Shown one piece after another: positions 1,350 through 37,855 of a stretch of DNA of 64,000 bases. The stretch comes from Campylobacterota bacterium. Its GTDB lineage: Bacteria > Campylobacterota > Campylobacteria > Campylobacterales > Thiovulaceae. The position numbers and the translations under genes are program-made. The number at the start of each line of letters is the position of its first letter. The first letter of the stretch is position 1. The notes beneath the pieces were generated by a model. It searched no databases and had not been told where the DNA came from. It was given only the letters and a program-made list of their open reading frames with translations. The DNA is taken from positions 11,515 through 75,514 of the forward strand of contig JASKOM010000006.1 in assembly GCA_030152305.1 (NCBI GenBank). The letters are read 5' to 3'.

Positions 1350-1599
1350 AGAAACTCCTCTTGTTTTAAATGAGCAATCATCTGAAAACTCTTTAAAAGT
1401 TATATTACCGAAAAAACTCTTATTTAAAAAATTTTGTTAATTTATTGTTATAAATCATGGCAACAATATTTAATAAATATCCATTTTAATATTTTTACTT
1501 GTTTTATTATATAATTAACAACCTTATTAATTTTGCCTATTATTATGATTTCAATAATTAATTTGTGTGCTAATTTGCATAAATACAAATAGGAATAAA

Positions 1600-2355
1600 A
1601 TGAATACAATTAATCCATTACTTAGACAAATCTTAGAACTCAACAGACCTCATGGTTCCATTGGAGAATCAAAACTTCTTGATATTATCAAATATAATAT
1701 TCCAAATATACAAAGTGATAATTATGGTAATCTTTATTTGTTAAATAATCAAAGTAACTTAGCATTTTGTGCTCATGTTGATACAGTTTCAAGAGATTCA
1801 AACACAGAAATACAAGAAATAGTTATTGACGATGGCATTGTTTCGTTGCCAAATACACTTAACAAATATACAAGTTTAGTTCTTGGTGCGGATAACGGAG
1901 CTGGAGTATATTTACTATTAATGTTATATAAATCAGGATTGAATGCTAATTTTTTCTTTTTTAGAAATGAAGAACATGGTCGAATTGGTTCAAGAGAATT
2001 TTTATCTAATCAATTGACTGAAATCAGCCATTTAACTCAAATGATTGCTTTTGACAGAAAAGATCAATATGAAATTATCATTGAACAAAGAAGTGAAATA
2101 TGTGCTTCTCGCGAATATGCTTTGGCATTGGCATCAGAATTAAACATGAATCATGAACCTTCACCTCATGGATCATTTACAGATTCATACACTTTTAAAG
2201 ATTACATAAATGAATGCTTAAATATTGCTGTTGGTTATTCCCATGCTCATAGTTCAAGCGAATCTCTTGATGTGAATTATCTCGAAACATTGCTCGATAA
2301 TTTAAAAAAAGTTAATTGGGAAAATTTACCTGTAATAAGACAATTAAGTAATTAA
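1600..2355 (+). CDS. M28/M20-like zinc metallopeptidase family protein
   Basis: AHVDTV, LGADNGAG, NEEHG, AFDRK and late His (HAHS) metal-ligand pattern; AGGA RBS favours ATG at 1600 over GTG at 1567. Confidence 0.7.
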   Translation: MNTINPLLRQILELNRPHGSIGESKLLDIIKYNIPNIQSDNYGNLYLLNNQSNLAFCAHVDTVSRDSNTEIQEIVIDDGIVSLPNTLNKYTSLVLGADNGAGVYLLLMLYKSGLNANFFFFRNEEHGRIGSREFLSNQLTEISHLTQMIAFDRKDQYEIIIEQRSEICASREYALALASELNMNHEPSPHGSFTDSYTFKDYINECLNIAVGYSHAHSSSESLDVNYLETLLDNLKKVNWENLPVIRQLSN

Positions 2356-2360
2356 ACTTA

Positions 2361-2390
2361 ACCTCATCAACATATTATTTTTGATGAGGT
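2361..2390. terminator. hairpin between convergent genes built from an inverted pair of the 8-mer
   Basis: ACCTCATCAA-catattattt-TTGATGAGGT: perfect 10-bp stem and 10-nt loop between stops at 2355 and 2401. Confidence 0.7.
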
Positions 2391-2400
2391 GATTTATAAA

Positions 2401-3630
2401 TTAATTTTTTATTGAAGTTTCTTCTGAATATTCTTTGAGGAATTGTTTAATATTTTTTGATGCTTGTTTAATTCGGTTTTTGTTTTCGATAAGTGCGATT
2501 CGAACATATTCGTCGCCATATTCACCAAAACCAATTCCCGGACTAACAGCAACTTGTGCTTCGAGAATTAATTTTTTGCTAAATTCTAAACTGCCAAGAT
2601 GTCTCATTTTTTCAGGAATTTTCGCCCAAACAAACATCGAAGCTCGAGGTTTATCCATTTGCCAACCAGCATTATTAAAACTTTTGATTAAAAAATCTCG
2701 TCGATCTTCATATGTTTTTCGAATGTCTTCTACACAACTTTGATCGCCATTTAAAGCAACTGTTGCGGCAATCTGAATTGGAGTAAACATTCCATAATCA
2801 ATCCAGCTTTTTATTTTTTCTAAAGCTCCAATTAATTTACGATTTCCAACGATAAAACCAACTCGCCAACCAGCCATGTTATAACTTTTTGACAAAGTAA
2901 AACTTTCGACAGCGACATCTTTTGCACCTTCAACTTCAAAAATCGAAGGAGTTCTATAACCGTCAAAAACTAAATCAGCATAAGCAATATCACTAATTAT
3001 ATAAAATCGCTCTTTTTTTGCTATTTCAACAAGTCGAACATAAAAATTTGGTGTTACCGTAACAGTTGTTGGATTATGAGGAAAATTGACAACAACATAT
3101 TTTGGTTTTGGAACAGATTCTTTAATAGCTGATTTCAAATCTATAAAAAATTGGTCTTCATCAAGTTCAAAGCTATTATTATATTTCATAGCCATTTTTC
3201 GAACTGTTCCACCTGCCAAAGTAAAAGCATAACTATGAATCGGATAAGTTGGATCTGGAACAATAGCCACATCGCCGACATTTGTAATCGCCTCGATGAG
3301 GTGAGTGTAACCTTCTTTTGATCCCATTGTTGCAACAGCTTCACCGTTTGGATCGATATCAACACCATATCTTCGTTTATACCAATCAGCAATTGCAAGT
3401 CTTAATTTATAAATACCTTTACTTGCTGAATAGCCATAATTTCCACTTTTTTGAGAAGCTTCGATTAATTTCGAAACGATATGTTTTGGTGTATTTCCGT
3501 CTGGATTTCCCATGCTGAAATCGATAACATCTTTGCCATTTCGTCGTTCGCTCATTTTAATTTCATTAACTGCTGCGAAGACATATTTAGGTAATCTAAT
3601 TATTTTTTCAAATTGAATCTCATCAAACAT
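2401..3630 (-). CDS. PLP-dependent class I/II aminotransferase (LL-diaminopimelate aminotransferase / AlaC-like)
   Basis: DFSMGNPD, NFPHNPT, SDIAY, TLSKSYNMAGWRVG motifs. Confidence 0.88.
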   Translation of the reverse strand: MFDEIQFEKIIRLPKYVFAAVNEIKMSERRNGKDVIDFSMGNPDGNTPKHIVSKLIEASQKSGNYGYSASKGIYKLRLAIADWYKRRYGVDIDPNGEAVATMGSKEGYTHLIEAITNVGDVAIVPDPTYPIHSYAFTLAGGTVRKMAMKYNNSFELDEDQFFIDLKSAIKESVPKPKYVVVNFPHNPTTVTVTPNFYVRLVEIAKKERFYIISDIAYADLVFDGYRTPSIFEVEGAKDVAVESFTLSKSYNMAGWRVGFIVGNRKLIGALEKIKSWIDYGMFTPIQIAATVALNGDQSCVEDIRKTYEDRRDFLIKSFNNAGWQMDKPRASMFVWAKIPEKMRHLGSLEFSKKLILEAQVAVSPGIGFGEYGDEYVRIALIENKNRIKQASKNIKQFLKEYSEETSIKN

Positions 3631-27415: not shown

Positions 27416-28117
27416 CTATTTATTTTTCGGTTGTTCCAAAAATTCAATTTGAATATTACCAGTTTGAGATATTTTAATCTCTCTTACATCGCCCTTTTTT
27501 GTTTTTAACTTTATAGAGTCAAATTCGATTTTGATGATTTTTGAATTATCGACCTCATCGCCGACTCTATACCAACGACCTGAAAGTTTAGCTTGATCGT
27601 CAAAAATCATTTCTAAAACAGGATCGATCTGTTTTGCTGTGTTATTAGCTTTGTTTAATTTTTCGCTCTTTTCAAGAACTATTTCTTCATCAAGTCGTCT
27701 AAAACATTCTTCGCTTTCTTGAATATGATTAATAATAGATCTATAAACTTTATCGTTCATTCCTGAAATATTTTTTATATCTTCTATTTTTTTTATTCCG
27801 AAACTTGTGCGATAGCCAACGATTATTCTAGCAAGACGTCGATCAATGCCTTCTATTTCCATGAATTGATCTCTCGTTGCGAATTGTATATCAAATCTTT
27901 TACAATTTCCTTTTTGATCGATTTCAACTTGTGGAGCTGGTTCATCAACTTCAAGAATAAAAGGACATTCGACACCGTCAAACTTATTTTCATCTATTGG
28001 CTCACGGTGATTTTGAATTCCGTTCATAATATTATTTAATTTTGTTGTGAAATTATTAATATCAGCGAATAATAAAACGATTGATGATGAGGTAACTAAA
28101 ACAAAAAATTTTAACAA
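27416..28117 (-). CDS. ComEA-like helix-hairpin-helix DNA-binding domain fused to a PilP/GspB-like beta domain
   Basis: IQFATRDQFMEIEGIDRRLARIIVGYR...IEDIKNISGM (HhH pair); LEMIFDDQAKLSGRWYRVGDEV...IIKIEFDSI; N-terminal hydrophobic segment. Confidence 0.65.
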   Translation of the reverse strand: MLKFFVLVTSSSIVLLFADINNFTTKLNNIMNGIQNHREPIDENKFDGVECPFILEVDEPAPQVEIDQKGNCKRFDIQFATRDQFMEIEGIDRRLARIIVGYRTSFGIKKIEDIKNISGMNDKVYRSIINHIQESEECFRRLDEEIVLEKSEKLNKANNTAKQIDPVLEMIFDDQAKLSGRWYRVGDEVDNSKIIKIEFDSIKLKTKKGDVREIKISQTGNIQIEFLEQPKNK

Positions 28118-36559: not shown

Positions 36560-37855
36560 TTATGTTTTTTTATTTTTTATTTCGCTCCAAATTGCCAAAA
36601 TTATTGATAATAAAATAAATATTATTGTTTCGATATTTGAAAAATAAAATTGATAATGTCCCCAAAAATTTAAAGATAAAAAATTTATTAATATCTCATC
36701 AAAAATATCGCCGATTCCTAATAAATGAACGATAACCATTATTGGATAAATAAATTCAAATAAAATTGTCCAAATTGGTGATAATAATTGCATAATATAA
36801 AAATCGTTAAAAAATAGATGAATTATTGGAATCATTGCAAAAAATACAAAAAAATTAATTACTATTAAATCGATAATTATTCCAAATTTAAATAAAGACA
36901 TATATAATAAAATATAAAAAACTCCAGCAACTGAAAACCAAAAACTAACTGAAAAAAATAATCTCGGATCAAAAGCAATTAAAATAATAATTGTGATTAA
37001 CAAAGTGTCAAATTTTCCTCGAGAAACATTTCTGTCAAATAATACAAAACCTATTATAAACATAAATATTGATCTTAAAAATGGTGGAGGCGACTGCAAA
37101 AATAAATTATAAATTAATGCAATAACGATTCCAACGATTAAACTATCTTTTATTCGATTTCGATACGGAAAAAATTTACCGTGAAAAAACATATAAATAA
37201 TATAAAAAAGAAATGTCGAAAATATAACAACAAGCGAAACATGAAAACCACTTAATACGGCAAGATGATTTATTCCCAAACGAGTTAAATCATTTCGTAA
37301 TTCGCCTCTAATTGGTGTTGCAAAAAGTAAAGCCGAATATAAATCAGCTATTTTTTTATTAGCATGTATTTCGTTTAGTTTATTCGATAATTCGAATCTC
37401 ATTTCACGATCGCAATTATCGATAATAGAAAGTGCTGATAAAATTAAATATGAACCTTTTAGAAAATTAATAAAGTTAAATTTTTCTGGAATAATAATTT
37501 CAGCTTGAACACGAAGTCCAAGTAAATTTTTATATTTATATCTTGATGAGGTATAAAAAAAGAACCCGTTATCAGCTTGAAGTTTAAAAATTGTATTTGG
37601 TGTTTTTTGATATTGATCAATTATTATAAAATCGCCTTTATAAGTTGAAAATCTTGAAAATTCTAAATATTGAAAATAATTTATTATTATCGAAATTAAA
37701 AATATAAAAAAAACAGTTCCAAGAAATATTAAATATTCTTGAACTGTGTAAAAAAGTCTTAATGTAAAGTTTTGATTAATCTCTCGTTTTGAGATCTCTT
37801 TTTTAATTTGCCTCCACTCGATTTCTGCCTCCTCGTTTCGCACGATAAAGAGCAT
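36560..37855 (-). CDS. comEC: ComEC/Rec2 competence membrane channel (start uncertain)
   Basis: LGINHLAVLSGFHV, PPFLRS, SVSFWFSVAGV competence-domain motifs. Confidence 0.9.
   Translation of the reverse strand: MLFIVRNEEAEIEWRQIKKEISKREINQNFTLRLFYTVQEYLIFLGTVFFIFLISIIINYFQYLEFSRFSTYKGDFIIIDQYQKTPNTIFKLQADNGFFFYTSSRYKYKNLLGLRVQAEIIIPEKFNFINFLKGSYLILSALSIIDNCDREMRFELSNKLNEIHANKKIADLYSALLFATPIRGELRNDLTRLGINHLAVLSGFHVSLVVIFSTFLFYIIYMFFHGKFFPYRNRIKDSLIVGIVIALIYNLFLQSPPPFLRSIFMFIIGFVLFDRNVSRGKFDTLLITIIILIAFDPRLFFSVSFWFSVAGVFYILLYMSLFKFGIIIDLIVINFFVFFAMIPIIHLFFNDFYIMQLLSPIWTILFEFIYPIMVIVHLLGIGDIFDEILINFLSLNFWGHYQFYFSNIETIIFILLSIILAIWSEIKNKKT

What the first reader, a model, noticed from the sequence alone, without database searches (positions are those of the whole stretch)
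2361..2390. Terminator-like hairpin whose stem is an inverted pair of the 8-mer
Seen: ACCTCATCAA-N10-TTGATGAGGT, a perfect 10-bp stem filling most of the 45-bp gap between convergent stop codons. Established: inverted DUS/USS pairs acting as intrinsic terminators are a hallmark of Neisseria and Haemophilus uptake sequences. This copy is non-coding, so it is independent evidence that the motif is selected at the DNA level.
Basis: partly seen in the sequence, partly recalled or inferred. Interest (0 to 1): 0.75.

Follow-up and report, generated by a model that had tools for sequence, protein, structure and literature searches.

The report
Gene-end hairpin built from uptake-like motif
The hairpin between two converging genes is real and is made of two inverted copies of a short DNA word that this bacterial family carries about a thousand times per genome, the pattern known from the DNA-uptake sequences of Neisseria and Haemophilus, though neither uptake nor termination has been tested.

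Summary
Observation confirmed. ACCTCATCAA (2361-2370), a 10-nt loop and TTGATGAGGT (2381-2390) fill 30 of the 45 bp between two convergent stop codons. The RNA folds at about -13 kcal/mol on either strand.

The core 8-mer GATGAGGT occurs 1205 times in the 2.01-Mb genome against 37.7 expected. It is split 600/605 between strands, sits in every open reading frame, and overrides codon usage. It is the top over-represented 8-mer in all 5 other genomes of the same Campylobacterales family. It is near background in most of the 25 other families sampled from the order.

Intergenic inverted pairs number 34 against about 2 expected. Of these, 17 lie in convergent gaps and 2 in divergent gaps, and close direct pairs number 0 against 16 expected. 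A second genome of the genus repeats the pattern.

Best reading: a co-opted 3'-end or terminator hairpin built from a DNA-uptake-sequence-like word, undescribed in the literature searched. No RNA data were found, so termination and uptake remain inference. This scan has noted similar words, but not this one, in many other genomes.

The parts
2361..2370 (.). Left arm ACCTCATCAA. Bases 2361-2368 are the reverse complement of the core 8-mer GATGAGGT.
2371..2380 (.). Loop CATATTATTT, 10 nt and A/T-rich.
2381..2390 (.). Right arm TTGATGAGGT. The core 8-mer is at 2383-2390, preceded by T, the minority Y at position -1 in this genome.
2391..2400 (+). Tail after the stem on the + strand (GATTTATAAA): 4 T in the first 8 nt, a weak U-tract.
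2351..2360 (-). Tail after the stem on the - strand (TAAGTTTAAT): 4 T in the first 8 nt. It overlaps the + gene's stop codon.
1567..2355 (+). Upstream convergent gene, 262 aa, weak Peptidase_M28 match (E 3.4e-6). Its stop codon is at 2353-2355, 5 nt before the hairpin.
2401..3630 (-). Convergent gene, 409 aa, class I/II aminotransferase (E 9.9e-65). Its stop codon is at 2401-2403, 10 nt from the hairpin.

Best explanation
The hairpin is a functional 3'-end element shared by the two convergent genes. It is most likely a bidirectional intrinsic terminator or a 3'-end stabiliser. It was assembled from two inverted copies of a family-specific, hyper-abundant DNA word, YGATGAGGT.

Shown: the word is maintained by a force acting on the DNA itself. 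It is strand-symmetric, evenly spaced, present in every open frame, overrides codon usage, and is conserved across species.

Inferred: that force is biased DNA uptake during natural transformation, as for the DUS of Neisseriaceae and the USS of Pasteurellaceae. Uptake bias plus recombination would spread perfect copies through the genome. At gene ends, where a stem-loop is useful, one copy would favour fixation of its complement, so pairs accumulate just past stop codons.
For: Abundance and symmetry:
- The core occurs 1205 times against 37.7 expected and is the top-ranked 8-mer. The strand split is 600 + and 605 -, and no 20-kb block is skewed.
- In the closed genome G001 the split is 501/492. 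The cumulative orientation walk has a range of 29, against 27-55 in permutations.
- Spacing is under-dispersed, with a variance/mean ratio of 0.49-0.65.

DNA-level force:
- Frame counts are sense frame 0: 529, frame 2: 30, frame 1: 0 (frame 1 would contain TGA). Antisense frames hold 198, 183 and 118.
- 529 of 584 DEV tripeptides are spelt GATGAGGT, against 8.3% expected. DEV itself is 4.3-fold in excess.
- 386 of 808 aligned sites are intact in G001, against 1271 of 6127 control 8-mers.

Family specificity:
- All 5 of 5 family genomes carry 145-1081 copies of CGATGAGGT, against 16-51 for the reversed control. Most of the 25 other families are near their control.
- It is the top, or overlaps the top, 8-mer in unbiased rankings of all 5. 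Flank 'dialects' differ between species: C..C or T..T.

Hairpins:
- Genome-wide close pairs number 41 (ACCTCATC..GATGAGGT), 14 (the reverse order) and 0 direct. The null gives 8.0, 8.1 and 16.0, and 0 of 2000 simulations reach 41.
- Of the 34 intergenic pairs, 17 are in convergent gaps, 15 in tandem gaps and 2 in divergent gaps.
- The median distance from stop codon to hairpin is about 16 nt. T frequency after the stem is 0.50 against 0.35 background. 19 of 47 tails have at least 5 T in 8, against 14.8% of background windows. Mean dG is -14.3 kcal/mol.
- 16 of 73 GC-containing perfect hairpins in convergent gaps are motif-built.
- 70 of 147 non-coding copies have a perfect inverted partner, against 40 of 1058 coding copies.

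This locus in relatives:
- A contig of a close relative (run X4) has ACCTCATCG, a different 9-nt loop and CGATGAGGT at the same place.
- G001 has an unrelated 12-bp hairpin in the orthologous gap, so a hairpin is kept there.

Uptake machinery: ComEC, DprA and two secretins are present in 6 of 6 family genomes. The window's own genome also has 7 prepilin-type proteins over cut-off, 4 HHH_3 (ComEA-like) matches and 3 T2SSE ATPases.

Match to known systems: Table 5 of Kingsford 2007 shows balanced strands, 0-2 close direct pairs and one preferred inverted configuration in Neisseria and Pasteurellaceae.
Against: - No uptake, transformation or transcript 3'-end data exist for this organism.
- This copy's loop is 10 nt and its tails carry only 4 T in 8. 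The consensus scan did not list it, and it found no excess of canonical terminators in the first 20 kb (6 against 8.0 in shuffles).
- Single-mismatch variants of the core are not enriched: summing the rows gives 171 observed against about 233 expected. Passages of Bakkali 2007 say that some mismatched forms are over-represented in H. influenzae.
- Genes without a G001 counterpart are only mildly poorer in the word (0.50 against 0.64-0.67 per kb).
- In the other three genera of the family, close inverted pairs are not clearly in excess over direct ones: G003 13 to 5, G004 17 to 9, G002 2 to 0, G005 11 to 2 with none in the order used here.
- Competence genes are widespread in bacteria that have no uptake sequences.
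- This scan has noted comparable hyper-abundant words in at least 124 other genomes. Abundance alone may therefore have another general cause.
Confidence: 0.6

Rival explanations
1. The word is read inside the cell, not at the surface. It could be a site for a sequence-specific repair, gene-conversion, nucleoid-organising or self-marking system. The gene-end hairpins would be a side use of an abundant word.
For: - Specificity is all-or-none. One-off variants sit at or below expectation.
- At orthologous sites the one-mismatch state is rare, 12% against 30% in controls. This suggests efficient conversion of near-matches.
- Accessory genes are nearly as rich in the word as core genes.
- Similar words occur in many unrelated genomes of this scan (unchecked notes).
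Against: - No candidate protein was found or sought.
- Strand symmetry and the lack of replichore skew exclude the known intracellular polar words, Chi and KOPS.
- Every statistical hallmark matches the two experimentally proven uptake sequences.
- Uptake machinery is present.
Confidence: 0.25
2. The inverted pairs are not terminators. They are tolerated by-products, placed where an inverted repeat does no harm, or they are mRNA-stabilising or processing hairpins.
For: - This copy and about 60% of the tails lack a T-rich run.
- Canonical terminator-like sites are not in excess.
- Loops between the two 8-mers reach 27 nt.
Against: - 32 of 34 intergenic pairs lie in convergent or tandem gaps and 2 in divergent gaps, which hold more DNA than convergent ones.
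- Most pairs sit within 50 nt of a stop codon (41 of 47 distances).
- T is enriched after the stem.
- A hairpin of unrelated sequence occupies the orthologous gap in G001.
- An RNA-stabilising 3' hairpin would still be a functional 3'-end element.
Confidence: 0.25
3. The hairpin is a copy of a small mobile or REP-like repeat element.
For: It is a short intergenic palindromic unit. Some G001 pairs share loops and flanks and belong to repeated segments.
Against: - In this genome the loops and flanks of the 34 intergenic pairs all differ. Only the 8-10 nt arms are shared.
- 88% of copies of the word are single and lie inside genes.
Confidence: 0.03
4. Chance inverted repeat in A/T-rich spacer DNA.
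For: A/T-rich intergenic DNA forms many weak hairpins. 91 of 148 convergent gaps hold some perfect stem of 8 bp or more.
Against: - 1 of 200 shuffles folds as well on each strand.
- The arms are the genome's most over-represented word.
- Pair counts exceed every one of 2000 simulations.
Confidence: 0.01

Closest known systems
DNA uptake sequence (DUS) of Neisseriaceae. From recall: a 10-12-mer read by the minor pilin ComP.
   Same: - Density is about one copy per 1-2 kb, with equal numbers on both strands.
- Conservation is family-wide, with species 'dialects'.
- Copies lie inside genes.
- Close inverted pairs sit in tail-to-tail gaps, one configuration is preferred, and close direct pairs are almost absent (passages of PMC1852404).
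   Different: - The sequence is unrelated and the core is shorter (8-9 nt).
- The host is a different phylum (Campylobacterota).
- Dialects here lie in the flanks, not the core.
- Only about 9% of copies are in pairs, and 88% are in genes (35% in N. gonorrhoeae per PMC1939737).
- No uptake assay exists and no receptor is known.
Uptake signal sequence (USS) of Pasteurellaceae (9-mer core with A/T-rich flanks)
   Same: - The core length, copy number and fraction in genes are similar (65% in H. influenzae).
- About 10% of copies occur as inverted repeats (PMC1939737).
- The bias towards one hairpin configuration is moderate: 50 to 25 there, 41 to 14 here.
- The proteome is reshaped by the word, as in the abstract of PMC2817400 seen in the listing.
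   Different: - One-mismatch forms are not enriched here.
- Hairpin use is clear in only one genus of the family.
- Function is untested.
Canonical intrinsic (Rho-independent) terminator
   Same: - The stem-loop lies 5-10 nt past two stop codons, with dG about -13 kcal/mol.
- As a class, the motif hairpins have T-enriched tails.
   Different: - This copy has a 10-nt loop, only 4 G-C pairs in 10, and 4 T in the first 8 nt of the tail.
- It was not called by the consensus scan.
Polar genome words (Chi, KOPS/AIMS) and HIP1 of cyanobacteria
   Same: Short words that are highly over-represented genome-wide, including inside genes.
   Different: - Chi and KOPS are skewed towards the leading strand (recalled). 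This word shows no skew.
- HIP1 is a palindrome (recalled). This word is not.

Membership tests
DNA uptake sequence (DUS/USS type) | Hundreds to thousands of copies, far above compositional expectation | tested here: met
   1205 copies against 37.7 expected; 42 against 0.88 in the window
DNA uptake sequence (DUS/USS type) | Equal numbers on both strands and no replication-related skew | tested here: met
   600/605; balanced in every 20-kb block; G001 501/492 with an orientation walk inside the permutation range
DNA uptake sequence (DUS/USS type) | Shared by a whole family, near background outside it, with dialects | tested here: met
   5 of 5 family genomes are enriched, and most of 25 other families are near their control. 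It is the top 8-mer in samples of all 5, with flank dialects C..C or T..T.
DNA uptake sequence (DUS/USS type) | Maintained at the DNA level inside genes, in all usable frames | tested here: met
DNA uptake sequence (DUS/USS type) | Excess of close inverted pairs at gene ends, one configuration preferred, close direct pairs rare | tested here: met
   compared with Table 5 of PMC1852404. Met in this genus only.
DNA uptake sequence (DUS/USS type) | DNA carrying the word is preferentially taken up or transforms better | not testable with these tools
   The organism is uncultured and no assay exists.
DNA uptake sequence (DUS/USS type) | A surface receptor that binds the word (ComP in Neisseria) | not tested
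   Seven prepilin-type proteins are over cut-off in the genome. None was examined for DNA binding.
DNA uptake sequence (DUS/USS type) | Mismatched forms also over-represented (reported for H. influenzae) | tested here: not met
   171 observed against about 233 expected for single-mismatch core variants (summed by me). This is a reported property, not a defining one (PMC1939737).
Intrinsic terminator | Stable G+C-containing stem with a short loop directly after a gene | tested here: inconclusive
   The 10-bp stem has 4 G-C pairs and folds at -13 kcal/mol, 5 and 10 nt from the stops. The loop is 10 nt, beyond the 3-8 of the scan.
Intrinsic terminator | U-rich tract directly after the stem | tested here: inconclusive
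   This copy has 4 T in 8 on each strand. As a class, 19 of 47 tails have at least 5 T in 8, against 14.8% of background.
Intrinsic terminator | Transcript 3' ends at the tail | not testable with these tools
   No RNA run is listed for this DNA.
Chi / KOPS-type polar word | Strong bias to the leading strand | tested here: not met
REP / MITE-type mobile repeat | Conserved sequence beyond the stem and mostly intergenic copies | tested here: not met
   Loops and flanks differ between copies. 1058 of 1205 copies lie inside ORFs.
Rfam RNA families | Match at gathering score | tested here: not met
   The best matches score 21.1 and 11.4 bits, far below gathering.

The most novel reading that the evidence does not exclude
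YGATGAGGT is not an uptake tag. It would instead be the footprint of an undescribed intracellular, sequence-specific conversion or self-marking system that drives near-matches to the perfect word. The basis is that one-off forms are depleted genome-wide and at orthologous sites. Such a mechanism could also explain the many clade-specific hyper-abundant words that this scan keeps finding in unrelated bacteria. In this reading the gene-end hairpins are secondary recruits.
Probability: 0.2. Interest if true: 0.85.

Novelty: new member of a known kind. Interest (0 to 1): 0.6.

Why it matters
Sequence-specific DNA uptake is experimentally established in only two bacterial families, according to the abstracts and passages of PMC1939737 and PMC7811141. 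This genome belongs to a Campylobacterales family that earlier notes of this scan call Thiovulum; I did not check that name. The family shows every genomic hallmark of an uptake sequence: abundance, symmetry, family specificity with dialects, a reshaped proteome, and gene-end hairpins with a preferred configuration.

If the word is an uptake sequence, three things would follow:
- It would be the first one in this phylum.
- It would give a function to test for the type IV pili reported in all Thiovulum genomes (PMC9938260, passages).
- It would give a simple marker of 'self' DNA for tracing gene flow in uncultured sulfur bacteria.

For annotation, the inverted pairs mark about 30 operon ends in this genome.

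Tried and rejected
It told nothing.
- The 80 loci found with the aminotransferase contain at most 2 copies of the word each. None is from the family, so the organism could not be named from them.
- Ranking k-mers by raw count returns only A/T runs.
- GC skew is too weak in both genomes to define replichores. I used local balance and an orientation walk instead.
- Orthologous gaps in the other three genera were not comparable because gene order differs.
- RNA evidence: no RNA holder is listed. The runs laid are DNA contigs and say nothing about transcript ends.
- Rfam: nothing near gathering score.
- Motif 'deserts' over 10 kb (6 observed against about 2.7 expected on an exponential model, my arithmetic): three are core operons for ribosomal proteins/SecY, rpoB/EF-Tu and ATP synthase. 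Three look accessory: Big/YadA/Peptidase_S74 surface proteins, astacin-like, and one protein with no Pfam match. This fits selection against the word in constrained or foreign genes. However, the genome-wide contrast between shared and unshared genes is small, so I do not lean on it.
- Literature searches found nothing describing this word or an uptake sequence in this group. Thiovulum + 'uptake sequence': 0 papers. The word and its complement as whole words: 2 papers, unrelated by title and abstract. 'DNA uptake sequence' + Campylobacterota: 0. 'Uptake sequence' + Epsilonproteobacteria: 1 paper, a 2009 review seen as a listing only. PMC9938260 holds no 'competence', 'transformation' or 'motif'. 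Supplements are closed, so gene tables there were not seen.

Full report
**The observation**

One search shows ACCTCATCAA at 2361-2370, the loop CATATTATTT at 2371-2380 and TTGATGAGGT at 2381-2390. One search places the stop of a + ORF (1567..2355) at 2353-2355 and the stop of a - ORF (2401..3630) at 2401-2403. The non-coding gap is therefore 45 bp, and the hairpin takes 30 of it.

Pfam calls the left gene a weak M28-peptidase relative (E 3.4e-6). It calls the right gene a class I/II aminotransferase (E 9.9e-65).

As RNA the stem folds at -13.1 kcal/mol on the + strand and -13.5 on the - strand, with z-scores of -4.0 and -3.5. On each strand 1 of 200 shuffles folds as well. The arms extend imperfectly to 19 nt. 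No Rfam family comes near its gathering score.

**The 8-mer**

The window lies in a 2,010,811-bp assembly of 13 contigs with 29.4% G+C.

Abundance and flanks:
- Ranked against a third-order Markov expectation, the most over-represented 8-mer is GATGAGGT/ACCTCATC, with 1205 copies against 37.7 expected. The window holds 42 against 0.88 in shuffles.
- The base before the core is C in 743 copies, T in 353, A in 88 and G in 21. The word is therefore YGATGAGGT, and this hairpin uses the minority T form.

Distribution:
- Copies split 600 to 605 between strands.
- They are balanced at about 6 and 6 in every 20-kb block.
- They are spaced more evenly than a Poisson process, with a variance/mean ratio of 0.49-0.65.

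Gene calls: I made a crude call of non-overlapping ORFs of at least 90 aa. It gave 1768 ORFs covering 90.8% of the genome. Smaller genes are missed, so some 'intergenic' DNA may be coding.

Position relative to genes:

| Location of copy | Copies |
|---|---|
| Sense, frame GAT-GAG-GT | 529 |
| Sense, frame that needs AGG | 30 |
| Sense, frame that would contain TGA | 0 |
| Antisense, three frames | 198, 183, 118 |
| Not inside an ORF | 147 |

**A force on the DNA, not on proteins**

- GAG makes up 10% of Glu codons. Yet 529 of 584 Asp-Glu-Val tripeptides are spelt GATGAGGT, against 8.3% expected. DEV itself is 4.3 times commoner than amino-acid frequencies predict.
- On the other strand, 57% of Thr-Ser-Ser is spelt ACCTCATC, against 0.8% expected.
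- Single-mismatch variants of the core are not enriched. Summing the rows gives 171 observed against about 233 expected.
- I compared this genome with the closed genome of another species of the same genus (G001). After dropping HSPs that overlapped better ones by more than 10%, 733 blocks remained, covering 1.37 Mb at 77.9% identity. In them, 386 of 808 sites are intact at the orthologous place, against 1271 of 6127 same-frame control 8-mers.
- The one-mismatch state is rare among motif sites, 12% against 30% in controls. A 400-kb sample had given 92 of 187 against 287 of 1409.

**Family specificity**

CGATGAGGT counts in relatives:

| Genomes | Copies | Reversed control |
|---|---|---|
| This genome | 743 | 12 |
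| The 5 other genomes of the family (4 genera in all) | 375, 145, 614, 418, 1081 | 16-51 |
| 25 genomes from 25 other families of the order | mostly below 30; three reach 63-81 | 9-24 for those three |

In unbiased 8-mer rankings of sequence samples, the same core, or an 8-mer overlapping it, comes first in all five relatives. The samples were 400 kb of G001 and 52-114 kb of the others. Densities are 0.5-1.05 copies per kb.

Flank preference differs between species, even within a genus. It is C..C here and in G005, and T..T in G001, G002 and G004.

The aminotransferase places the genome in Campylobacterota, with at most 74% identity to named relatives. Earlier notes of this scan call it Thiovulum; I did not check that.

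Neighbouring copies with 0-45 nt between them (null = 2000 uniform placements with random orientation):

| Arrangement | Observed | Null mean | Null extreme |
|---|---|---|---|
| ACCTCATC..GATGAGGT | 41 | 8.0 | maximum 20 |
| GATGAGGT..ACCTCATC | 14 | 8.1 | maximum 18 |
| Direct | 0 | 16.0 | minimum 5 |

Within intergenic DNA there are 31, 3 and 0 such pairs. The same 138 sites placed at random in intergenic space give 1.0, 1.1 and 2.1.

By type of gap (overlapping gene pairs dropped):

| Gap type | Gaps | DNA (bp) | Pairs |
|---|---|---|---|
| Convergent | 148 | 23,022 | 17 |
| Tandem | 1084 | 109,697 | 15 |
| Divergent | 159 | 45,414 | 2 |

Further properties of the motif hairpins:
- Of 47 distances from a stop codon to a hairpin, 41 are 50 nt or less, and the median is about 16 nt.
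- After the stem, T frequency is 0.50 against 0.35 in comparable DNA. 19 of 47 tails have at least 5 T in 8, against 14.8% of background windows. Mean dG is -14.3 kcal/mol.
- 70 of 147 non-coding copies have a perfect inverted partner within 45 nt, against 40 of 1058 coding copies.
- Motif hairpins are 16 of 73 perfect hairpins with at least 3 G/C per arm in convergent gaps. They appeared to be the largest single class when I read the list.

In G001 the pattern repeats. It has 993 copies. Close pairs number 33, 26 and 1 direct. Of these, 22 lie in 122 convergent gaps, 25 in tandem gaps and 2 in divergent gaps.

In the other genera the excess is unclear. Pairs in the order -+, +- and direct number 7/6/5 in G003, 7/10/9 in G004, 0/11/2 in G005 and 0/2/0 in G002.

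**This locus in relatives**

A contig from a metagenome run (X4) is about 97% identical to the window over the aminotransferase. It stops matching at 2383. Before that point it carries ACCTCATCG, a different 9-nt loop and C, followed by GATGAGGT. The pair of words is therefore kept while the loop and the inner base pair differ. This rests on one contig at depth 4.5.

In G001 the orthologous convergent gap holds an unrelated 12-bp hairpin. A stem-loop therefore seems wanted at this gene junction whatever its sequence. That argues for an RNA-level role and for recruitment of the word, not dependence on it.

**How it most likely works**

Shown:
- The word is kept by a DNA-level force.
- It is strand-symmetric and family-specific.
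- Its inverted pairs sit at gene ends.

Inferred:
- The pairs act as bidirectional terminators or 3'-end stabilisers.
- The word spreads because DNA that carries it is preferentially taken up and recombined.

Passages of Kingsford et al. 2007 (PMC1852404) report the same set of features for Neisseria and Pasteurellaceae. These are hairpins of paired uptake sequences enriched in tail-to-tail regions, one preferred configuration (226 to 5 and 50 to 25), and 0-2 close direct pairs. Passages of Bakkali 2007 (PMC1939737) give about 10% of copies in inverted repeats and no orientation bias. Here (41+14)x2 of 1205 copies, or 9%, are in such pairs.

The parts list for transformation is present. ComEC, DprA and two secretins occur in 6 of 6 family genomes. 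This genome also has prepilins, ComEA-like HHH_3 proteins and T2SSE ATPases. These genes are common in bacteria without uptake sequences, so they only permit the reading. Passages of PMC9938260 report type IV pilus genes in all Thiovulum genomes and do not mention competence.

**Against, and rivals**

Points against the best reading:
- Nothing functional is known, and no RNA run was listed.
- This copy has a 10-nt loop and weak tails, and the consensus scan did not call it.
- One-off forms are not enriched, unlike H. influenzae.
- Unshared genes are only slightly poorer in the word (0.50 against 0.64-0.67 per kb).
- Hairpin use is confined to one genus.

An intracellular conversion or marking system is the main rival for the word. 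'Tolerated by-product or RNA-stability hairpin' is the main rival for the hairpin. Chi/KOPS-type, mobile-repeat and chance readings fail their tests.

**Novelty**

Searches of the held library found no description of this word, nor of an uptake sequence in this group. The kind of feature is well known, so I file it as a new member of a known kind.

This scan's earlier notes list uptake-sequence-like words in at least 124 other genomes, none with this word or from this family. That lowers the surprise. It also raises the possibility of a more general cause.

Noticed in passing
genome-wide (G000); for example hairpins in convergent gaps listed: A second over-represented word, TTCGGGAT/ATCCCGAA, has 165 copies against 17.6 expected. 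It forms its own family of gene-end hairpins, ATCCCGAA-loop-TTCGGGAT. The related 10-mer TCGGGATGAC occurs 60 times.
   Followed up: no
genome-wide (G000), convergent gaps: Further recurrent hairpin families sit at gene ends: CCCGCGAC..GTCGCGGG, GGAAYGGTC..GACCRTTCC and ATTCCGTG..CACGGAAT. The Ssn paper is PMC11893778, seen as a listing only.
   Followed up: no
window 36659-37309 (-) and 27722-27907 (-): The genome's single ComEC (Competence domain) match and one of its four HHH_3 (ComEA-like) matches lie inside this window (coordinates converted from contig C10).
   Followed up: partly
G000 contig C5, 45160-45179 and 45355-45877: A motif hairpin with a 4-nt spacer sits about 180 bp upstream of two tandem ComEA-like (HHH_3) genes. 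This may be coincidence.
   Followed up: no
genome-wide, G000 and G001: Close direct pairs of the word are absent: 0 against 16 expected in G000, and 1 in G001. This holds inside genes too, where close inverted pairs occur at about the expected rate, 9 and 11. 'One copy is enough' spacing would not by itself spare inverted pairs in genes.
   Followed up: partly
G000 contig C6, 26562-43326: The longest stretch without the word (16.8 kb) encodes large surface-type proteins. One has bacterial Ig domains. Another has YadA-head repeats and a Peptidase_S74 (endosialidase-chaperone) domain, as in phage tail fibres.
   Followed up: partly
G001 contig C1, around 288931, 292448, 921547, 922726, 923898, 930996: Several motif hairpins in the sister genome share loops and flanks (TTTTCA..TTTTCAAGACT). 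They therefore travel with a repeated segment and did not arise independently.
   Followed up: no
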